Positions 2,628 to 20,527 of a stretch of 20,556 nucleotides of DNA are shown here, one piece after another. A model generated the notes under the pieces. That model searched no databases and had not been told where the DNA came from. It saw only the letters and a program-made list of their open reading frames with translations. Source of the stretch: Escherichia coli (lineage in GTDB: Bacteria; Pseudomonadota; Gammaproteobacteria; Enterobacterales; Enterobacteriaceae); assembly GCA_022664555.1 (NCBI GenBank), contig GCA_022664555.1_4839.2. One strand, given 5' to 3'. Position numbers and translations under genes: made by a program. The number at the start of each line of letters is the position of its first letter. Position 1 is the first letter of the stretch.

Positions 2628-3187
2628 TGGCAGGAATTGTGAAGTACCTGGGCGACACCCACCTCGGGCACAAGAAGATCTTCAAGCCCCGTGGGTTCGA
2701 CACGCAGGAAGCCCACGACGCTGTGGTCATCGACAGTATCTTTCAGGGGCTGAAGTCCCGAGACGTCCTTGAACTTGCAGGCGACATCTGCTTCATCGGG
2801 GCTGAGGGGTTCATTCGCCTGATGCGCGAGGGTGCCAAGCGGAATATTGATGAGTTCAAACGCCGCCCGGTTCCCGATGACTGGCGACCGAACTTTATCA
2901 TCAGGGTGGCGCAAGGCAACCATGACAATTTCAAGATGTTGATGCAGCTGTATCAAGAGGGATGGATTAGCTCCTTTGGTGCGATGTATGAGCGTGATAC
3001 TCCGGTTGGTCGTGTGCTGACCACTCACGTTCCTTATCAATTAGACCGCTGGGCGTATAATATCCATGGTCATCTTCACAGTGAAATGCGTGAAGAACGT
3101 GAATACCTGAACTGTAGTTGGGAACAATTCAAGCGCCCTGTAACCCTGTCTGAGTTGTTATACACCAATCTGGGGATTGAAATATGA
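2627..3187 (+). CDS. Calcineurin-like metallophosphoesterase
   Basis: ATG at 2627 with GAGGAG 6 nt upstream. Metallophosphatase motifs GDTHLG (GDxHG), GNHD (GNH[DE]) and HGHLH. Confidence 0.7.
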
Positions 3188-3501
3188 AAATTTATTTTCC
3201 TGGCCAAAAAGTGCCTTCTGAAGTGCAGAAGGTCACAATCACAGGCTACCGGAAAGGGGATCCATATCTGCGCTTCTCCTCTCCATGTATCGTGAAGCAA
3301 ACTAAAACGGGTTATTATATCAGGCCGATTGTGTTGATGGGCTGTGTAATGACGTTCAGAGCTTCCTGTGAACACGTTCTTATACAAGGAAGCCCGAACA
3401 TCGAAGGTGGAGAAACCCACACGAACTGCAAGCCGATTATCCCGACATGGTTGATTATTGGTGTGCTTTCCGTTTTAGCTCTGAAAGGAATATTGTCATG
3501 A
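3184..3501 (+). CDS. Hypothetical protein (105 aa) with hydrophobic C-terminus
   Basis: ATGA overlap with the preceding stop. C-terminal TM-like segment [18 protein letters not shown]. Confidence 0.45.
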
Positions 3502-3827
3502 AAAAGCCGCGTATTACAGGACACCAACTCTTGGTTCTCTACGGGATAGAGAACTTTGAGAAAGGTCATTACCGTTATGTTGAATGGTACTTGCATCCCA
3601 TATCCTGTACCAATGAGAAGTGCTACACGGTGTGTACGTTCAAGTTATTCACGATTTCTTGTGGTTTCACCTCCGTCAAAGGCAACCCCCGCACTGGGGC
3701 TTCCCTGCTCGCCAAGGGGTTGATCGAACCAGCTGGCTCAATGGTTCATGACGGTTCTTACGTGAACTGGCCGAACGCTGAGGTGACGTTCTATCGCCTG
3801 ACCGAACTCGGTAAATCTTATCTCTGA
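3498..3827 (+). CDS. Hypothetical protein (109 aa), possibly winged-helix-like
   Basis: ATG at 3498 (AAAGGA upstream), ATGA overlap with the preceding stop. The ORF-track start at 3447 looks like an upstream extension. Confidence 0.5.
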   Translation: MKKPRITGHQLLVLYGIENFEKGHYRYVEWYLHPISCTNEKCYTVCTFKLFTISCGFTSVKGNPRTGASLLAKGLIEPAGSMVHDGSYVNWPNAEVTFYRLTELGKSYL

Positions 3828-3897: not shown

Positions 3898-4212
3898 ATG
3901 ACCCCATTAAAAGAAATGTATGAGCGCCTGGCTGAACTACAGGCGAAGGAAAAGCGCTTCTCAGAAGAAGAGTCTGAAATCTCCGAGCTGAACACTTTGA
4001 TCGCCACTCGCGAGAAGTACCTGCAGCGCTACATTAATCACCCACCGCGCATGGTAGACCGCGTCAGCACTATCATGGACCTGGATGAAGTTACTCCTGG
4101 CAAAGAAATCATTGTCAGGGAAGTCCATCAGATGGTCGCCATGGGTCAGATCTTTGGTCGTGCAGACCAAGACGACATGATGTTCCTCCTTGAAAAGAAA
4201 CTGGTGATGTGA
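3898..4212 (+). CDS. Hypothetical protein (104 aa)
   Basis: ATG at 3898 with AAGAGGA 7 nt upstream; stop TGA overlaps the cd start. Confidence 0.55.
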   Translation: MTPLKEMYERLAELQAKEKRFSEEESEISELNTLIATREKYLQRYINHPPRMVDRVSTIMDLDEVTPGKEIIVREVHQMVAMGQIFGRADQDDMMFLLEKKLVM

Positions 4213-4718
4213 TGGCTATCAAACCCCGTATGTTGTTTGCGCATATGCGCTCGGCTCATGCATACGCTCTGTCCAGCTATGCCCAGCGCCTGAAGGTCGG
4301 CTGTGTTATCGTTGACCCGCGTGTTGACCAGCCCCTGTCTATCGGTTGGAACGGGACTGCTCCTGGCGCTCCTAATGTCTGTGAGAAGGAAGTAGACGGT
4401 CAACTGGTATATGTGGGTGTTATCCACGCCTAGGATAATGCTCTGATCAAACTCCCCCAGCACACCGAAGACTGTTGTGGCCTGGTGATGTTTGTCACTC
4501 ATAGTCCATGCCCAGAGTGCACCCGTCGTATTATCGACAGTGGCAAGATCGCTAAAGTGTTCTATGACCGACAATATAGTATCACAGACTGTATTATTGA
4601 AATGCTGGCTGCTGGAATTGAAGTATATCGCATGGTCGATCAGGTTGTTGTAGTCCAGCATTCTGTGAAGAACGGCGAACTGGTATCCACCCCTGTTTTA
4701 GTGAACCCTGACAAATAA
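4212..4718 (+). pseudogene. cd: dCMP deaminase (cd) interrupted by an in-frame amber codon (TAG at 4431-4433) at the catalytic-Glu position
   Basis: Single 168-codon frame. N-part VGCVIVD...SIGWNGTAPG...VIHA, then TAG, then DNALIKL...THSPCPEC. This matches the deaminase zinc motifs H-A-E and PCxxC, with the stop where E is expected. ORF-track fragments are 4209..4433 and 4485..4718, in the same frame. Confidence 0.75.
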
Positions 4719-5351: not shown

Positions 5352-5962
5352 GGTAAGAGCAGTCCATCATCCCGCTCCGTTGGGGCGGGTTTAATCTCCT
5401 TCCGCATCTGTTCTTTCAAGAATCTGACACGCTCGGCATGTCGGCGATCTTGCATCTCCATATCCCGTTTCTTTTTCGACTTCAATTCGAACTGTTTACG
5501 AACATCCGGATCTTCACCTGGAACAAGATGCTCTTCGGTCCAGATAATGAACTTCCAGTTCTTCTTGGCACACAGTTCGCGGGTGGCCTCCCACTTGGCA
5601 GAATTGACCAACCAGGTTCGCATCGCATTGTTGAACGTCGACTCCTTCATGTTCGGAGTCTTCTTCGGCTGCTTGATCTGGTCTTTGGGCTTGATCTCAA
5701 TGAGGGTGACCTGTAGTTCCTCTTGCCCTTCACGGCGCGTCCAGACCTTGAGGTCCATGAAGTAACGATGGGTGCGCCCGTCTACTGGGGAAATGTAAGG
5801 GATTACGGTCTCCTCGTTTTCCCAGAAAATGATCGCAGGATTAGTATCACAAAACTTGAAAGCCACAAGTTCCAAAGAAGATCGAAATACGATTTTGTTT
5901 GGGTTGCCTTTGTACTTTTTAGGATTGACAGGAACATATTTCCCTTGAAGATATTGCGCCAT
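5348..5962 (-). CDS. Hypothetical protein with PD-(D/E)xK-like nuclease motif and lysine-rich C-terminus
   Basis: ATG at 5962 with GGAGGA upstream, overlapping the seg stop (TAATG). Motif ...PYISPVDGRTHRYFMDLKVW... (D ... D-L-K). Confidence 0.5.
   Translation of the reverse strand: MAQYLQGKYVPVNPKKYKGNPNKIVFRSSLELVAFKFCDTNPAIIFWENEETVIPYISPVDGRTHRYFMDLKVWTRREGQEELQVTLIEIKPKDQIKQPKKTPNMKESTFNNAMRTWLVNSAKWEATRELCAKKNWKFIIWTEEHLVPGEDPDVRKQFELKSKKKRDMEMQDRRHAERVRFLKEQMRKEIKPAPTERDDGLLLP
5371..5395. terminator. Possible bidirectional terminator hairpin between convergent genes
   Basis: cccgctcc-gtt-ggggcggg stem-loop followed by TTTAAT. It lies in the last codons of the minus-strand ORF, so the assignment is tentative. 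Confidence 0.3.
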
Positions 5963-6699
5963 TATGCTTTCCTCCAACCTTTATGCTGTAAATTGCGACC
6001 CTTGTTTACGTGGCCCATGGAGCCTTCGCTCAAACCGATTTCTTTACAAAATTTTGCCAGGTTGACAATTGTCACCAACTGCCCTTCTGGGTTGATGAAT
6101 TTGAATTCTCGGGAATTGGCCTCGGATATTCTCTCGCGCCCTTCTTTCGTCACAGCCCCTTTGCAATTAGAGTAATCTACCAACCCCAATTCAACAAGTC
6201 GCTTATTTGAATTTCTTATTTTGTCCCTGGTTTGCTGGTCTACAACACAACCAAATCTTGGGTTATTTTCTCCCGAACGATCTTTTCCAAACCAAAAATT
6301 TCTAGAACCGTTTAGCGCTCTTGAACGATAAATTCTTTCCAGTTCTTCTTTTGGTTTAGAGAGTAATGTGTTCAGAGCTTTGGTAGACGCCTGCTTTCTA
6401 GCCTCTGGGTCTGAATTGATGTGGTCGAAGGATCCACATCCACCCAGCGTCAAATTGTATGTATCTTCCCTTTCTATAAAATCTTTGGTTACTATTCTGG
6501 ATTCTTCTAGGTACATTTGTTCCTGAGTTTCACACTCCAATAAAATATCCTTTCTGAAGTTTTCAACTCCATGTTTCTTGATTGCTCTGGTTATCATAAC
6601 ACCAGAACCCATATAGCCATCATCCGGTTCGCCTTTGTGGGCACCAACATATATCTTACCGTTTAGAAGATTGGTTATCTGGTAGACGAAGTATCTCAT
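5962..6699 (-). CDS. GIY-YIG homing endonuclease (Seg-like)
   Basis: N-terminal YFVYQITNLLNGKIYVGA ... GYMGSG ... E ... N matches the GIY-YIG catalytic module. C-terminal half has NUMOD-like DNA-binding repeats. GC is visibly lower than in the flanks. Confidence 0.8.
   Translation of the reverse strand: MRYFVYQITNLLNGKIYVGAHKGEPDDGYMGSGVMITRAIKKHGVENFRKDILLECETQEQMYLEESRIVTKDFIEREDTYNLTLGGCGSFDHINSDPEARKQASTKALNTLLSKPKEELERIYRSRALNGSRNFWFGKDRSGENNPRFGCVVDQQTRDKIRNSNKRLVELGLVDYSNCKGAVTKEGRERISEANSREFKFINPEGQLVTIVNLAKFCKEIGLSEGSMGHVNKGRNLQHKGWRKA
5962..6699 (-). mobile_element. Free-standing homing endonuclease gene inserted between nuclease and baseplate genes
   Basis: Same ORF as the Seg-like CDS; intergenic placement and compositional difference from neighbours. 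Confidence 0.55.
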
Positions 6700-7729: not shown

Positions 7730-8284
7730 ATGAAATATTTTGAGAAGTTTCCACTTGTTTGGCATCAATTGCAAGATGTCAAAGAGAATCATCAGTTGTT
7801 GTTACAGAACTTAACGCGCCGGGTGATGATCTTACAGAAAATTAAGGACATCGAAGGGCTTCTCCTGCCGTATACGATCCAAGAGGGGGAAACCCCAAGG
7901 TCTTTCGCAGAACGCGTTTACGGATCCTTCGAGTTGTTTTGGATACCTTGTCTGATAAACGGCATCATGGACATCAATAAGGACTGGCCAAAACCGGAAC
8001 GTCGTATTGTTGAAGAACTGACTGCAGACTATGGCATCGATGGTATGTGGGATACAGCCTATTATGTAGACCAGTTCAACAATGTGACCGACGCCCGTGC
8101 TATCAAATTTGCATATAACCTAGACCTGGATGAGCCGTCCATAATTGCTAACTATGGTCTGACGGCAGTTTCATATCATGATGATGCAATCAGTAAGAAT
8201 GAAGCCAAACGGAACATCCGAGTACTCGACCCAGATTATGTGTCTTCGTTTGTCAATCAGCTGGAGCAGGAGTTGGCGAAATGA
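7730..8284 (+). CDS. Small baseplate hub-associated protein (gp26/gp28/gp51-like by position)
   Basis: 184 aa; ATG at 7730 with AAGAGAGGA upstream; ATGA-coupled to the next gene. Assignment is by synteny only. Confidence 0.45.
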   Translation: MKYFEKFPLVWHQLQDVKENHQLLLQNLTRRVMILQKIKDIEGLLLPYTIQEGETPRSFAERVYGSFELFWIPCLINGIMDINKDWPKPERRIVEELTADYGIDGMWDTAYYVDQFNNVTDARAIKFAYNLDLDEPSIIANYGLTAVSYHDDAISKNEAKRNIRVLDPDYVSSFVNQLEQELAK

Positions 8285-9669
8285 TCGAAAACAGAGAGAC
8301 CCAAGACGGTATTGTAACACCGTCAACAACATTTGACCTGAAGTATATGGCGATCCTCCCTCATACACCCCAGGGTGGAACACCAACGCCATATGATCTG
8401 ACGGCGTTGTTTGAGGAGTTCAACGTCTTCCAGGATCTGGGTCTTGAAGGGAAGTCATCTCCATCACTTACAGCCAATGTCTTGATAAAAGAAGTGTGTG
8501 ACATTCTTGACACAATGCCTATCTTGGGTGGTGAAGAAGTTGTGGTGTCATTCAAGAGTCCGGCGGCCTCGGAATACCCCACTCTCTCCCTGCGCGTAGC
8601 GCGTGTTGGGCGCGTAGCTGATGAGTCCAACAGCTCGTCCAAGAAAGCATTCTGGTTGCACATGGTGACCACCGATGCCTATAAGGACAGCATGATCCGA
8701 TGCTCCCTCGGTCTTGACGGTTCGTATTCTGACATGGCGAAGGCAATCTTCAATCAGTTGGAGTCGCGCACCAAGTTCGAAGACATCGACCCGTCGTATG
8801 GAATTCAAGAGCGGTTCGCCACCCCGCTCTGGCCTGTGCTGCGATCTATTGATTATATGGCGAGCCGTTCTTATGACGAATTGTTCATGCCATTCGTGTT
8901 CTATGAAGACTTCAATGGCTATCACTTCAAGAGCCTGACGACGTTGTTCAACCAGGGTAGCCAGTCATTGACAGCAGAAGAGAAGCAGGAACTAGCTCAG
9001 CAGAACAAGTTGTTCCGTGATCCTCAGGACGCGCCGCTCATGCAGGATAACAACTTCAACTCTGAGCGCTTTATGCGCACGATCATCAAGGCAGAGAAGA
9101 AGCTGGCGCGTGACCAGTTCATGGCAAACTACCGCGATGTCCTGGCGGTGAACGAGCGCGTCTACGACTTTGAGACCAAGACAGTCACCCCAACACAGCG
9201 CATCTATACTGAGTGGTTTGCAGAGACGGCTCACCTTGATCCGTTCCCGATGTTCTCAGATGAATTCAATCGTCAGAACGTCCGTTACATTGAAGCCCAG
9301 CCGGATGGAGCGGAGCAGATTGATTATGCTCGTCGTGTTATCAACTTCAGTCTTGCCAGCACTGTGATGCGCGTGTTGCTCGTTGGTGATAACCGCCTGA
9401 ACGTCGGTCAGGTGTTCTACGTCGAAGACCAGTCCAACCGTCCTAAGAAGAACGAAAACCTGGCAGAGTTAAGTAAGCTATCGACAGGCCACTATATCGT
9501 GACCAAAGTGCGTCACAAGATTTCCCGCCTAACCAAAGATTATCAGTGCATCGCTGAGATTGCCAAGGACAGTTTGCTGGAGCAGGTGCTTCCACCTCAG
9601 ACCAATCAGACAACTGCTTCCACCACTACTCCTCAGGCGATTGAGAAAGGCCAAGCACAGAAGGTTTAA
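8281..9669 (+). CDS. Baseplate hub subunit, gp27-like (tentative)
   Basis: 462 aa. Segments PLWPVLRSIDYMASRSYDELFMPFVFYEDFNGYHFKSLTTLFNQ and GDNRLNVGQVFYVEDQSN resemble remembered gp27 hub motifs. Immediately upstream of the tape-measure gene. Confidence 0.55.
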   Translation: MIENRETQDGIVTPSTTFDLKYMAILPHTPQGGTPTPYDLTALFEEFNVFQDLGLEGKSSPSLTANVLIKEVCDILDTMPILGGEEVVVSFKSPAASEYPTLSLRVARVGRVADESNSSSKKAFWLHMVTTDAYKDSMIRCSLGLDGSYSDMAKAIFNQLESRTKFEDIDPSYGIQERFATPLWPVLRSIDYMASRSYDELFMPFVFYEDFNGYHFKSLTTLFNQGSQSLTAEEKQELAQQNKLFRDPQDAPLMQDNNFNSERFMRTIIKAEKKLARDQFMANYRDVLAVNERVYDFETKTVTPTQRIYTEWFAETAHLDPFPMFSDEFNRQNVRYIEAQPDGAEQIDYARRVINFSLASTVMRVLLVGDNRLNVGQVFYVEDQSNRPKKNENLAELSKLSTGHYIVTKVRHKISRLTKDYQCIAEIAKDSLLEQVLPPQTNQTTASTTTPQAIEKGQAQKV

Positions 9670-11627: not shown

Positions 11628-12287
11628 TCAGATTCCGTGGGCTTGTATTAGCTCACGGAGTCTCTGTTTTGAATATGTTGTATCCTCATCCGGAACCACA
11701 GCATTCGTCTTCCTGAGCAAGAACGCCTCCGAGTTCCAATAGATGTCATCACGCAGAATCGTATCGTACAGATGAATGAAACCAACGATCTTGTTCAGAC
11801 CGACAAGGAACCAAATCGGGAACTTCTTGATGATGATGTCTGTTAGCAACGGCGGATGACGTGTACCCGTCCCCTTGATGTACTCAATGAAGGTGCAGTT
11901 GCGCTCCCTTATGGCAGGGATCATCTCCCGCTCGAACTCCTCTAGGAAGTTATATGTGAATTTCTCTTACAGCTTACGGTATTCATCATAATTGGCCTGA
12001 GCCTGGCGTGTAAGCAATGTCGTCACCCAGGTCTTGGGTGATTTGATGAAGTTGGCAATGATGTAGTTCTCTACCACTTCACCCTGTGATGACTCGAACC
12101 GACGGGCAAGGCGAGCAAACTGTTTGCACACGGCCTCCTTCGCCAAGAACGTCTCGAACTTGTAATTCATCGGCCCATACAAGCTGTAATCGAAGTCCTT
12201 AGTGGTGAAGTGCAGCTTGATCGCCATGAATACACAGTAAACGTTGAACGCCCGCTCGAACTCCATCTTCTGCCACTCTGTTAGCAT
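11628..12287 (-). pseudogene. 59: gp59-like helicase loader interrupted by an in-frame ochre codon (TAA at 11967-11969)
   Basis: ORFs 11967..12287 and 11628..11924 are in the same frame, separated by one TAA and 14 sense codons. N-part VYCVFMAIKLHFTTKDFDY...NFIKSPKTWV and C-part IYWNSEAFLLRK resemble gp59 N- and C-domains. Combined length is about 219 aa. Confidence 0.5.
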
Positions 12288-14532: not shown

Positions 14533-14874
14533 TTATTTCTTCGGGGGTTCAATTGAGGTGAAAGAATCCTTCCAACTCTTGAATTTTTCAACCAGGGCTT
14601 CTTTACCCAGCTTGTCATTTGACACGCTGTGAATATAGGCAAATGCTCCATAGCCGGATCCTGGCATAGCCTTGCAGATGCGCAGACTGACCAAAGAATC
14701 TCCTACGGAAACAAGATAGTGGTCACGACGATTGTTCGGGGCATAATGGTTGTCGTGAAACTTGTCAATAACAACACAGTTCTGAGGTTCGACGTCAATC
14801 GGTAGCCCGTTGGCTTCGGATCCGCCGCGCCCAAGTACGCAGCCTGGGAATAATGTTTCTAAGAGTGTAGTCAT
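14533..14874 (-). CDS. Hypothetical protein (113 aa)
   Basis: ATG at 14874 with AAGGA 7 nt upstream; preceded by a ~250-nt non-coding region. Confidence 0.55.
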   Translation of the reverse strand: MTTLLETLFPGCVLGRGGSEANGLPIDVEPQNCVVIDKFHDNHYAPNNRRDHYLVSVGDSLVSLRICKAMPGSGYGAFAYIHSVSNDKLGKEALVEKFKSWKDSFTSIEPPKK

Positions 14875-15127
14875 GGACTGTTCCTTCTTTAAGTTCCCAA
14901 GAATTAAATGGGTGAATAGTTTATTGAATTATTTGTTGTGAAACCCAGAGCCTTGTGGACTTCTTCACGATTTTAATTTCGGCCTGAGCCTCTGTGCGAT
15001 TAATCTAGCGCTTGTGATGTCGGGAGAGGGCTTTGTAAACAAGCCTTGGCGTCAATGGCATCGATTAGACAACGGATCTCAGCGCATCAGAGGCTTGCCC
15101 AACAGCCAGTTGAAATACTTGCGCATG

Positions 15128-15540: not shown

Positions 15541-15657
15541 TCATTTCTTCCTCTTAAAGGGGACGACCAGGGCTATGATGAGAAGCATAGCTGTAATCAT
15601 CCCACATGCTATCAGACCGAAGGCGAACGACTTCAGAACAAACTCAATCAAATTCAT
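15541..15657 (-). CDS. Very small hydrophobic membrane peptide (38 aa)
   Basis: Hand-translated: MNLIEFVLKSFAFGLIACGMITAMLLIIALVVPFKRKK. ATG overlaps the stop of the 368-aa gene (ATGA). Below the ORF-track size cutoff. Confidence 0.35.
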   Translation of the reverse strand: MNLIEFVLKSFAFGLIACGMITAMLLIIALVVPFKRKK

Positions 15658-16760
15658 AATTTCCTCAATTTGGCTCTGGTGACCTGAGTTTGTTTAACGC
15701 CGTTGTACTCAGTCAGTTCTTTGACACGACCACGGATGATCATATCGCCCTGCAAGAACTCTGTATCCATATAAGAGGTCTTCCAGGTAATTGTATTGCC
15801 TTCTGCTGTTTTGAAAGTAAACAGGTAGCTATCACCATATTCATTGGAGAAGAGGAAGGTGCGCTTGTCGAACCTGACTTGCACTTCCAGCATTTCACCG
15901 ACTTCACCCACCCATTTGTTCTCCGCCTTGCGGTCAGTACGAGGACGATGGATGTAATCGTAATACTTCTTGGCACCCCAGCGGACTGTGTTGTTATCCT
16001 TGATGAGGTGATAGCCGGGTTCACACATGCGTTTCAGGCGAACATTGAACTCATTAGATTCGGACAGCGCACTGATGAAGAGCTTCATATGGTACATTTC
16101 CGACTCGGCATCTTCACGGTATTCGTGTGCCTTGTTTACGAAATACTCTTCATCGGAACCTGCTTTTGGTTTCTGGTGAGACCGGACATAGCCCAGGACT
16201 TTGTCAAACAGTTCAGACTTGATATCCACGCCTGCCAACATCACCTGGAAGCATGCGCGCAGGAAACTGTGGGTGTCGACGAAGCGCTCATTTTGGACGC
16301 GATATATACCCTCTGGGTCGTCCTCGTCTGGCATGAAGAACTCTTGGATTTCCAGATAGTAAGACATAATCGCGTCAAGCGATTTCTGATGAGGTACATA
16401 ATGATGCATACAGGTGCTACCAATCAGCATCTGGGTGTGCGTTTCCTCATTTTCAATCACATACGTGTTCTTGCGACGGATGACTAGATTGCAATGCTGA
16501 CACCAAGAGACGTTCTCTGTCTCGAAGCGACGGATGAAGTCAGGATTGATGTTGTCAGACAGGCGGTTAAGAATAACTTTTGGATATTCGTGATTGAACT
16601 GACCGATGATTTTCCAGCCACCATAAGAGACGGGGCGGTCAATGCCTTCGCCTTCGAGAGTAACAGGTTTCCACCAGTGAGTAAGGATCTCACCAGTGAA
16701 GTCGCGGGTGTGGGTTTTGAAGGGTTCACCATAAGTCACAGTCGGAAACGGAACACCCAA
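15654..16760 (-). CDS. Hypothetical protein (up to 368 aa) with Cys/His cluster and OB-fold-like C-terminus; start codon uncertain
   Basis: Long ORF with no ATG in the first ~117 codons (the track start is TTG at 16760). Cluster WCQHCN...STCMHHY. C-terminal beta-rich segment VGEVGEMLEVQVRFDKRTFLF...ITWKTS. Confidence 0.55.
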   Translation of the reverse strand: MGVPFPTVTYGEPFKTHTRDFTGEILTHWWKPVTLEGEGIDRPVSYGGWKIIGQFNHEYPKVILNRLSDNINPDFIRRFETENVSWCQHCNLVIRRKNTYVIENEETHTQMLIGSTCMHHYVPHQKSLDAIMSYYLEIQEFFMPDEDDPEGIYRVQNERFVDTHSFLRACFQVMLAGVDIKSELFDKVLGYVRSHQKPKAGSDEEYFVNKAHEYREDAESEMYHMKLFISALSESNEFNVRLKRMCEPGYHLIKDNNTVRWGAKKYYDYIHRPRTDRKAENKWVGEVGEMLEVQVRFDKRTFLFSNEYGDSYLFTFKTAEGNTITWKTSYMDTEFLQGDMIIRGRVKELTEYNGVKQTQVTRAKLRKL

Positions 16761-16900
16761 CCTTTCGGCAGTGCGCTAGAGCTTCTTCAGTCTCTAAACT
16801 ACAAAAAATTCATTGTATAACGGAATATTGAAAGTTTTTAAGTTCATTTCCAGACTCATGATGTAGTTGTAACTCTTCAATACAGATTAAATATTAGGCG

Positions 16901-19464: not shown

Positions 19465-20527
19465 GGTCCATTTGCTCCAGCATGTTCGCAGGCATAACAG
19501 TACCGTTAGAAACACCGAACATCTTCTTCACGTCATCGGCGAAGTCGACATTCTCCAGAAGCGGATACCAGAAATCATCATCCATCTGACGCTTCTGATA
19601 TTTCTTTTCCTTCTCAGGATCGAAGCCGCCCTTGGCTGTACGCACATACCAGCCGGAAGACGGCATATCAACGTAACCCAGAGCACGAGCGATCTCAAGC
19701 AGGCCGCTCCAACGGTCAATGCCGCCGTCGTACAGCACTGTCACAGGGAGTTTGGCTTTCTCTTTGACATGACGGCCTTTCATGATGCCGATGTTGAAGT
19801 TCCAGCCCAGCAGATCTTTGTCTTCCTTCACCTGAGAACGGGTGATGAACCAGATCAGGTTGGACGACAGGAAGCCCTGCTTGCCGCCTTTGATGTTAGG
19901 CTCGGCATACTGGTTGCCGATCTCATCGTAATAGGAGTTGATCCACACCAGCACGAGGTCTTTGCTGTTGATCTCAGGGGTGATCACGCGCCAGAAGCTG
20001 TTGAGGGCACGGGCGCGGGTCATATCCTGTGTATCTTTCCCAGCGATGGCATCTTCAACTTCTTTCGTAGAAGGCAGCTGGCTGATGGAGTCAATGAAGA
20101 CGATAACATGGTCGCCTTTCTTGACTTCCTGAAGGATTTGCAACAGGCGGATCTTGGTCTGCTCAACGTTGTCAATCGGCACGTACAGGACGCGATCCAT
20201 GTCAATACCCATAGACGTCCAGTAATCGGCGTTGGCACCTTTCTCAGAGTCCGCGAAGATACACAGGGCATCAGGGAACTTGTCCATGTACGCCTTGACA
20301 TCTACCAGACCGAACATCGTTTTGAAGGTACGGGAATCACCCACCATCATCTTGATACCGGAGATCAGGCCGCCGTCAATACGCCCGGACCAGGCGATGT
20401 CGATCAGGGGAATACCAGTAGAACAGATGATAGACGGTTCCAGAGCGTCTGATTGGGACAGCACTGAAGCCTGGTCGTCGTGTTTCTTGGCAACCTTCAG
20501 CATGCGGTCCATTAATGAACTGGCCAT
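19442..20527 (-). CDS. uvsX: RecA-like recombinase UvsX
   Basis: 361 aa. Walker A-like GDSRTFKT, Walker B-like HVIVFIDSIS, RecA-fold order. ATG at 20527. Confidence 0.9.
   Translation of the reverse strand: MASSLMDRMLKVAKKHDDQASVLSQSDALEPSIICSTGIPLIDIAWSGRIDGGLISGIKMMVGDSRTFKTMFGLVDVKAYMDKFPDALCIFADSEKGANADYWTSMGIDMDRVLYVPIDNVEQTKIRLLQILQEVKKGDHVIVFIDSISQLPSTKEVEDAIAGKDTQDMTRARALNSFWRVITPEINSKDLVLVWINSYYDEIGNQYAEPNIKGGKQGFLSSNLIWFITRSQVKEDKDLLGWNFNIGIMKGRHVKEKAKLPVTVLYDGGIDRWSGLLEIARALGYVDMPSSGWYVRTAKGGFDPEKEKKYQKRQMDDDFWYPLLENVDFADDVKKMFGVSNGTVMPANMLEQMDHVINTSE

What the first reader, a model, noticed from the sequence alone, without database searches (positions are those of the whole stretch)
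4212..4718. dCMP deaminase carries an amber codon exactly at the catalytic glutamate
The cd reading frame is continuous for about 168 codons except for one TAG at 4431-4433. The flanking residues (V-I-H-A-[TAG]-D-N-A-L ... T-H-S-P-C-P-E-C) place the stop where the Glu of the H-A-E motif is expected, so GAG to TAG is a single G-to-T change. An in-frame GTG/ATG at 4485/4488 could allow reinitiation of a C-terminal fragment that lacks the catalytic residue. Possible readings are a natural or laboratory amber allele (suppressor-dependent), loss of the dTMP-supply branch, or a sequencing error.
Basis: partly seen in the sequence, partly recalled or inferred. Interest (0 to 1): 0.8.

Follow-up and report, generated by a model that had tools for sequence, protein, structure and literature searches.

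The report
Stop codon from clustered sequence errors
The stop codon at the catalytic glutamate of this phage's dCMP deaminase is really in the sequence, but it is one of about 50 tightly clustered, unselected G-to-T-type changes that also break two other conserved genes, so it is most likely an error patch in the record and not phage biology.

Summary
TAG at 4431-4433 replaces the GAG of the H-A-E catalytic glutamate in a 168-codon dCMP deaminase (cd) gene of an Agtrevirus-like Ackermannviridae phage.

The amber is not an isolated event. Against 10 relatives that agree with each other, cd carries 8 private substitutions, all G>T or C>A, and none is synonymous. Five hit residues that are invariant across four genera.

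The same kind of patch occurs 8 times in the window. Together the patches cover 305 bases and hold 50 changes, 49 of them transversions. Of the coding changes, 38 are nonsynonymous or nonsense and 6 are synonymous. There are no indels. The patches also put TAA into the DNA helicase loader gene and two TAGs into a conserved 397-codon gene.

The number of stops (4) matches what unselected G>T/C>A changes would give (3.25). Every change fits calls drifting towards T in the Illumina two-colour code, in one read orientation per patch.

No other sequence I could find carries the variants: 12 close relatives aligned at cd, one IMG/VR contig and one metagenome contig are all wild type. TAG still terminates gp41.

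Best reading: localised base-calling or consensus errors, with the real phage probably carrying GAG. This cannot be proven without the reads. Interest is low.

The parts
4212..4718 (+). dCMP deaminase (cd) gene, 168 codons, interrupted by one TAG
   Evidence: Orthologue of the intact 507-nt cd in all relatives. PF00383 58 bits with Glu restored.
4431..4433 (+). TAG replacing the GAG of catalytic Glu74 (H-A-E motif)
   Evidence: G>T at 4431. GAG in the close relatives and GAA in LIMEstone1, and GAG in IMG/VR L019 and metagenome L020.
4411..4447 (+). error-like patch 1 in cd: C>A, G>T, G>T, G>T, G>T (S67Y, E74*, E75D, S79I)
   Evidence: 5 of 5 are transversions and none is synonymous.
4573..4590 (+). 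error-like patch 2 in cd: C>A, C>A, G>T (P121Q, R123S, G127C)
   Evidence: All three residues are invariant in 9 relatives from 4 genera, and R and G are conserved in 4P9C.
3580..3660 (+). largest error-like patch, in a conserved 109-codon gene (phrog_4677): 16 private changes, 15 transversions, 13 nonsynonymous
7781..7796 (+). error-like patch in the gp53 baseplate wedge gene: 3 transversions, all nonsynonymous
8495..8499 (+). error-like patch in the baseplate hub/tail gene: GGGGTGGG to GTGTGTG, 2 G>T, both nonsynonymous
11943..11969 (-). error-like patch in the DNA helicase loader gene (11628-12287, minus strand). TAC>TAA at 11969-11967 gives Y107* and splits the gene.
   Evidence: phrog_269 DNA helicase loader, E 9e-63
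14862..14907 (.). error-like patch, mostly intergenic: 6 transversions (C>A, G>T, four T>A on the + strand)
16776..16854 (-). error-like patch at the 5' end of a conserved 397-codon gene (15654-16847, minus strand, phrog_2319): 12 transversions. GAG>TAG at codon 18 (16796-16794) and codon 24 (16778-16776).

Best explanation
The amber codon is a defect of the sequence record and not a property of the phage. Eight short patches (305 bases in all, about 16% of positions changed) carry substitutions that drift towards T, or towards A on the opposite strand. The most likely origin is low-quality short reads carried into the consensus at thinly covered spots. The spectrum fits Illumina two-colour chemistry, where spurious green signal gives G>T and C>A, and lost red signal gives A>T and C>G. 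One patch happens to cover the H-A-E motif of cd, where GAG is one G>T step from TAG. The phage most likely has GAG and an intact dCMP deaminase that makes dUMP from dCMP. Shown: the patches, their spectrum, the lack of selection on them, the other broken genes, and the absence of the variants elsewhere. Inferred: that the cause is base calling or assembly, and which platform was used.
For: Relatives: 12 close Aglimvirinae genomes aligned at cd have an intact 507-nt gene with GAG or GAA at codon 74, and nine relatives from four genera have Glu74. IMG/VR and metagenome scans with a pattern that accepts either allele found only the wild type.
Private changes: there are 184 across the window, and 50 of them lie in 8 patches. 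Of those 50, 49 are transversions, against a control Ts:Tv of 1431:640 (Fisher p = 1e-23). Their coding effects are 38 nonsynonymous or nonsense to 6 synonymous, against 235:273 for control transversions (p = 1.5e-7).
No selection: the patch changes match the expectation for unselected G>T/C>A changes (72.8% nonsynonymous, 7.4% nonsense, 19.9% synonymous; 3.25 stops expected, 4 seen).
Other genes: the helicase loader has Y107* (TAA) and the phrog_2319 gene has E18* and E24*.
Conserved residues in cd: E74, E75, P121, R123 and G127 are invariant in 9 relatives from 4 genera, and only the window differs.
Rest of the window: outside the patches the private changes look selected (transitions 41 synonymous to 8 nonsynonymous; transversions 9 to 6), and no gene has an indel in a patch.
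Spectrum: all 50 changes fit a drift towards T in the two-colour code with one read orientation per patch, and 49 of 50 are single-channel changes (P = 0.012 against strand-randomised observed types; 0 of 200,000 trials for uniform transversions). AfterQC reports that NextSeq produces very few A/G and C/T errors because of the two-colour system (PMC5374548).
Code: TAG is a true terminator of gp41.
Against: No reads, coverage or quality values are available, so the error origin is inferred. Consensus-level errors at 16% density are unusual for a phage isolate, which is normally sequenced at high depth, so very low local coverage or a poor polishing step has to be assumed. The two-colour model was formulated after seeing the data. 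G>T and C>A are reverse complements of each other, so only 14 of the 50 changes discriminate the read orientation. The source record could not be found, so its platform is unknown.
Confidence: 0.8

Rival explanations
1. The DNA that was sequenced really carried these changes, but they were never exposed to selection. Examples are patches copied from oxidatively damaged template during library amplification, or a defective minority genome that the assembler picked up. The viable phage population would still have GAG.
For: G>T/C>A is the classical outcome of 8-oxoG (established knowledge). The changes show no selection.
Against: 8-oxoG does not explain the 10 A:T>T:A and 4 C:G>G:C changes, or their coherence of strand within each patch. 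A density of 16% over 20-80 bases, with clean sequence between patches, is far above any known damage or polymerase error rate.
Confidence: 0.08
2. It is a genuine nonsense allele of a viable phage: a natural or laboratory amber mutant of cd, grown on a suppressor host or carrying its own suppressor tRNA, with loss or conditional expression of the dUMP supply step.
For: TAG lies exactly at the catalytic Glu. TAG is a rare terminator in the window, ending 2 of 32 genes. Relatives carry tRNA-Tyr and tRNA-Ser genes, which are the classical sources of suppressors (established knowledge).
Against: The same window has an internal TAA in the helicase loader and two TAGs in another conserved gene. cd also has six missense changes, five of them at residues invariant across the family. 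The window has no tRNA, and AV101's tRNAs have normal anticodons (CAT, GTT, GTA, GCT). Classical chemical mutagens give transitions, not patches of transversions (established knowledge). TAG terminates gp41 as it does in the relatives.
Confidence: 0.04
3. The record was altered after base calling. Examples are ambiguity codes or masked low-quality bases resolved to a fixed base, a faulty polishing or consensus step, or deliberate editing of the sequence.
For: The changes are confined to short blocks with sharp edges. The exact proteins of this window, including ones with no patch, are not on record in a collection of 153 billion gene positions.
Against: Random filling would give one third transitions, but 1 of 50 is seen. 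A fixed resolution rule would not give strand-coherent patches in both orientations. The spectrum matches a physical instrument error mode.
Confidence: 0.05

Closest known systems
Phage dCMP deaminases of the zinc-dependent cytidine/deoxycytidylate deaminase fold (T4 Cd, PDB 1VQ2; the 138-residue enzyme of PDB 4P9C)
   Same: H-A-E and P-C-x-x-C zinc/catalytic motifs, length and order of conserved blocks. 4P9C matches at E 3.7e-25 over residues 3-141, including the Y-R-I-T-D-G block. Position and synteny are the same as cd in all Ackermannviridae relatives.
   Different: As written, the catalytic Glu codon is TAG and five other family-invariant residues are changed. No relative shows this.
Classical amber (conditional-lethal) mutants of T-even phages
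   Same: An in-frame TAG in a nucleotide-metabolism gene that arises by one base change from a sense codon.
   Different: There are four stops in three genes, including a TAA, all embedded in dense transversion patches with extra missense changes. No suppressor tRNA was seen. The comparison itself rests on established knowledge of T4 genetics.
Substitution error profile of two-colour Illumina instruments
   Same: Substitutions only, almost no A/G or C/T changes (PMC5374548). Every change is a one-channel step, coherent within each patch.
   Different: These changes are in a finished consensus and not in single reads. The platform of the source record is unknown.
Older four-colour Illumina 'T accumulation' errors
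   Same: G is miscalled as T first, then A and C as T, in late cycles (PMC2745764).
   Different: It predicts many C>T calls, but only 1 is seen against 9 C>A and 4 C<->G changes (C>G or G>C) once the patches are oriented. The fit is poorer than for the two-colour model.
Stop-codon reassignment (TAG read as an amino acid) in some large gut phages
   Same: In-frame TAG in conserved genes.
   Different: TAG terminates gp41 and the next gene at the same positions as in relatives. Only 3 in-frame TAGs occur, all inside error-like patches. An in-frame TAA also occurs. The family is not known for recoding (own knowledge).

Membership tests
dCMP deaminase (PF00383, zinc-dependent CDA fold) | Profile match above the curated threshold | tested here: met
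   58 bits against a cut-off of 25, with Glu restored at codon 74
dCMP deaminase (PF00383, zinc-dependent CDA fold) | H-A-E motif: His zinc ligand plus catalytic Glu | tested here: not met
   His72-Ala73 are present, but the Glu74 codon is TAG in the window as written. The close relatives have GAG and LIMEstone1 has GAA.
dCMP deaminase (PF00383, zinc-dependent CDA fold) | P-C-x-x-C zinc-binding motif | tested here: met
   S-P-C-P-E-C at residues 98-103, aligned to 4P9C, 2HVW and 1VQ2
dCMP deaminase (PF00383, zinc-dependent CDA fold) | Orthologous position in Ackermannviridae genomes | tested here: met
   Same neighbours and same 507-nt length as the annotated cd in AV101, A221, AG3, SKML-39 and LIMEstone1
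Suppressor-dependent amber allele | A single nonsense change in a gene that otherwise shows purifying selection | tested here: not met
   Seven further private changes in cd, none synonymous, five at invariant residues
Suppressor-dependent amber allele | A suppressor tRNA (CUA anticodon) available to the phage | tested here: inconclusive
   No tRNA in the window. AV101's four tRNAs are not suppressors. The rest of this genome and its host are not visible.
Stop-codon (TAG) reassignment | TAG not used as a terminator, and in-frame TAGs spread over many genes | tested here: not met
   TAG ends gp41 and the next gene. In-frame TAGs occur in only 2 of 32 genes, and there is also an in-frame TAA.
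Sequencing or consensus error patch | Changes show no purifying selection while the surrounding sequence does | tested here: met
   38 to 6 inside the patches against 235 to 273 for control transversions (p = 1.5e-7). Outside the patches, transitions are 41 to 8.
Sequencing or consensus error patch | Spectrum typical of an instrument error mode | tested here: met
   49 of 50 are single-channel two-colour steps and 50 of 50 are coherent towards T within each patch. Literature support in PMC5374548. The hypothesis was formed after seeing the data.
Sequencing or consensus error patch | Variants absent from independent sequences of the same lineage | tested here: met
   10 close relatives are unanimous at all 50 sites. 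L019 and L020 are wild type at the amber, and L020 is wild type at all 8 cd sites.
Sequencing or consensus error patch | Low coverage, low base quality or strand bias at the affected positions | not testable with these tools
   No reads or quality values are available, and the source record was not found

The most novel reading that the evidence does not exclude
The patches are real. In that case a viable Agtrevirus-like phage would carry dense, localised G>T-type hypermutation tracts, with nonsense codons in cd, the helicase loader and a third conserved gene. That would imply either an unknown targeted mutagenic process or propagation that depends on amber and ochre suppression.
Probability: 0.03. 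Interest if true: 0.6.

Novelty: not a real feature. Interest (0 to 1): 0.08.

Why it matters
If the amber were real, it would mean a ViI-like phage can do without its own dCMP deaminase. By inference from T4 Cd and from the 5-hmdUMP pathway described in PMC5889632, this enzyme supplies the dUMP that these phages turn into 5-hmdU-derived hypermodified thymidine. The evidence instead points to a defect in the record, so the practical value is quality control. This record probably contains about 50 wrong bases in 20 kb, concentrated in eight patches. They create three false pseudogenes (cd, helicase loader, phrog_2319 gene) and about 34 false amino-acid changes. Anyone using it for annotation, phylogeny or protein design should correct or mask these patches. 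The clustering, transversion-only and no-selection test used here is a simple way to separate such artefacts from real nonsense alleles.

Tried and rejected
1. I looked for the source genome or an independent copy through exact proteins (gp53, the cd N-terminal fragment, DNA ligase, the SegE-like ORF). None is on record.

2. I scanned IMG/VR and the metagenome collection with a pattern accepting G or T at the three sites around the amber. Only one contig turned up in each, and both are wild type.

3. Suppressor tRNA: there is none in the window, and AV101's tRNAs are Met-CAT, Asn-GTT, Tyr-GTA and Ser-GCT. I scanned only the first 31 kb of AV101, which holds its four annotated tRNAs.

4. The sequence-specific dephasing error model (PMC3141275) predicts miscalls that copy the preceding reference bases. 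It does not fit: for example GCC[G]AGG becomes T with no T nearby.

5. Four-colour 'T accumulation' (PMC2745764) is a poorer fit, because C>T is nearly absent.

6. Oxidative 8-oxoG damage alone does not explain the A>T and C>G changes.

7. Recombination with a divergent relative is rejected for the patches, because the true mosaic patches in the same window (5817-5945, 19973-20243) have normal Ts/Tv ratios and are mostly synonymous.

8. Reinitiation at GTG 4485 or ATG 4488: the codons exist, but the upstream sequence CTGTTGTGGCCTG shows no clear Shine-Dalgarno match, and the product would lack His72 and Glu74.

9. Sense-strand bias of G>T: my tally from the lists is about 22 to 11, which is not convincing.

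10. Pfam gave no domains for the fragments of the other broken genes. PHROGs on the intact AV101 copies gave the labels.

Full report
**What is there.**
The frame 4212-4718 translates to 168 codons with a single internal TAG at 4431-4433. It is flanked by V-I-H-A-*-D-N-A-L, with T-H-S-P-C-P-E-C downstream. GTG 4485 and ATG 4488 are in frame. With Glu restored, the protein scores 58 bits on PF00383 against a cut-off of 25. It also matches solved dCMP deaminases: 4P9C at E 3.7e-25, plus 2HVW and T4 Cd 1VQ2.

**Whose genome.**
The window is an Agtrevirus-like member of the Ackermannviridae (Aglimvirinae). The best matches are Escherichia phages AV101, A221, YX22, PC3/PH4, ZQ1, LHE287 and RPN242, Enterobacter phage fGh-Ecl02 and Salmonella phage CECAV_050, at 96.6-97.8% identity. 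No record is identical. Every relative inspected has an intact 507-nt cd at the same position. The close relatives have GAG at the codon in question and LIMEstone1 has GAA.

**The amber is not alone.**
The cd alignment shows eight window-private substitutions:

| Position | Change | Effect |
|---|---|---|
| 4411, 4412 | C>A, G>T | S67Y |
| 4431 | G>T | E74* |
| 4436 | G>T | E75D |
| 4447 | G>T | S79I |
| 4573 | C>A | P121Q |
| 4578 | C>A | R123S |
| 4590 | G>T | G127C |

All are G:C>T:A transversions and none is synonymous. In an alignment with nine relatives from four genera (Agtrevirus, Limestonevirus, Taipeivirus, Kuttervirus; 59-95% identity), E74, E75, P121, R123 and G127 are invariant, and only the window differs. 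R123 and G127 are conserved even in the 4P9C enzyme.

**The same thing happens elsewhere in the window.**
I aligned the whole window to ten relatives and kept the positions where all relatives agree and the window differs. That gives 184 private changes, which fall into two populations.

- Ordinary divergence. This covers scattered changes (transitions 41 synonymous to 8 nonsynonymous; transversions 9 to 6) and three mosaic patches with normal transition/transversion ratios that are mostly synonymous.
- Eight abnormal patches at 3580-3660, 4411-4447, 4573-4590, 7781-7796, 8495-8499, 11943-11967, 14862-14907 and 16778-16854. Together they cover 305 bases and hold 50 changes, a density of 16.4%.

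Within the abnormal patches:

- 49 of the 50 changes are transversions, against a control Ts:Tv of 1431:640 among the relatives (Fisher p = 1e-23).
- Their coding effects are 34 nonsynonymous, 4 nonsense and 6 synonymous, against 235 to 273 for control transversions (p = 1.5e-7).
- There are no indels in any patch.
- Many hits break G-runs (GGG>GTG, TGG>TGT), or C-runs on the other strand.

**Other genes are broken too.**
Mapping AV101's genes onto the window shows three more premature stops. The DNA helicase loader (phrog_269) has Y107*, TAC>TAA at 11969-11967. A conserved 397-codon gene (phrog_2319) has E18* and E24*, both GAG>TAG, at 16796 and 16778. Together with cd, that makes four stops in three genes, each inside an abnormal patch.

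**Is the amber more than chance?**
No. Across all coding G and C positions in the window, G>T/C>A changes give 72.8% nonsynonymous, 7.4% nonsense and 19.9% synonymous outcomes. Among 44 coding changes, 3.25 stops and 8.7 synonymous changes are expected, and 4 and 6 are observed. Thirteen cd codons are one such step from a stop, and GAG74 is one of them. The TAG lands on the catalytic Glu only because one patch covers the H-A-E motif.

**Independent sequences.**
Exact-protein look-ups for four proteins of the window found nothing. A degenerate DNA pattern that accepts either allele found one IMG/VR contig and one metagenome contig. Both are wild type, and the metagenome contig is wild type at all eight cd sites.

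**Mechanism.**
The changes were never filtered by selection and are confined to read-sized patches. The most economical explanation is base-calling or consensus error.

The spectrum gives a specific lead. In the Illumina two-colour code (A red plus green, C red, T green, G dark), G>T and C>A are both 'green gained', and A>T and C>G are both 'red lost'. Transitions need both channels to flip. All 50 changes fall in the drift-towards-T set for one read orientation per patch, and 49 of the 50 are single-channel steps. With the observed types but the strand randomised per change, P = 0.012. With uniform transversions, none of 200,000 trials reached 50.

AfterQC reports that NextSeq machines make very few A/G and C/T errors, for exactly this reason (PMC5374548). 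Older four-colour 'T accumulation' (PMC2745764) fits less well, because C>T is nearly absent. The dephasing model of PMC3141275 does not fit at all.

I formed this model after seeing the data, and the platform of the record is unknown. It is therefore an inferred mechanism. What is shown is that the changes are clustered, unselected and unique to this record.

**Rival readings.**

- A genuine suppressor-dependent amber allele is unlikely. An in-frame TAA and two further TAGs occur in other genes. cd carries six extra missense changes at conserved residues. The window has no tRNA. The closest relative's tRNAs (Met-CAT, Asn-GTT, Tyr-GTA, Ser-GCT) are not suppressors. TAG ends gp41 as it does in the relatives.
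- Stop-codon reassignment fails for the same reasons.
- Real but unselected template damage cannot reach 16% density, and it does not explain the A>T and C>G changes.
- Post-processing corruption of the record cannot be excluded, but it does not predict the strand-coherent spectrum.

**Function of the gene if intact.**
By homology to T4 Cd and the 4P9C enzyme, the protein deaminates dCMP to dUMP. Phages that hypermodify thymidine make 5-hmdUMP from dUMP with a dUMP hydroxymethyltransferase, and ViI-like phages belong to that group (PMC5889632). That cd feeds this pathway here is an inference. Its strict conservation across four genera argues that the enzyme is needed, which again makes a true null allele improbable.

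**Verdict.**
The feature is most likely not real biology (confidence about 0.8), so interest is low. The decisive test is to inspect the reads, or to re-sequence 4350-4650 together with the two other stop-bearing patches.

Noticed in passing
window 5962-6699 (minus strand), with 5817-5945: A 245-aa ORF with SegE-type GIY-YIG and NUMOD3 motifs (a homing endonuclease) sits between the gp4 head-completion gene and gp48. It is absent from all 10 relatives compared across the window. The adjoining 5' part of gp4 carries 40 private changes with a normal Ts/Tv ratio (23 synonymous to 17 nonsynonymous), which looks like a co-conversion or recombination tract from the homing event.
   Followed up: partly
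window 11628-12287 (minus strand): The DNA helicase loader gene (phrog_269) is split by TAC>TAA at 11969-11967, inside a three-change transversion patch. This is a second false pseudogene of the same origin as the cd amber.
   Followed up: yes
window 15654-16847 (minus strand): A conserved 397-codon gene (phrog_2319; annotated as RecT-like in phage CECAV_050) has two GAG>TAG codons (18 and 24) within a 12-change transversion patch at its 5' end. The mechanical ORF list therefore shows it only from a TTG at 16760.
   Followed up: yes
window 3580-3660: The densest patch: 16 private changes in 81 bases, 15 of them transversions and 13 nonsynonymous, in a conserved 109-codon gene of unknown function (phrog_4677). 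It creates no stop codon.
   Followed up: partly
window 19973-20243 (UvsX gene): 21 private changes, mostly synonymous transitions. This is an ordinary mosaic or recombination patch, and it served as an internal control for what real divergence looks like.
   Followed up: partly
window 3184-3501: This ORF matches the AV101 gene at the same position only weakly (69% identity over about 107 bases), while the flanking genes are 88-97% identical. It looks like an allele replacement typical of early-gene mosaicism.
   Followed up: no
locus L009 (ON212266.1, Enterobacter phage fGh-Ecl02): The record is filed under Cvivirinae; Kuttervirus, yet it is 96.8% identical to this Agtrevirus-like window over 20 kb. 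The taxonomy line is probably wrong.
   Followed up: no
window, all 32 mapped genes: Terminator usage is TGA 17, TAA 13 and TAG 2 (gp41 and the gene after it). TAG is rare but is a real stop.
   Followed up: yes
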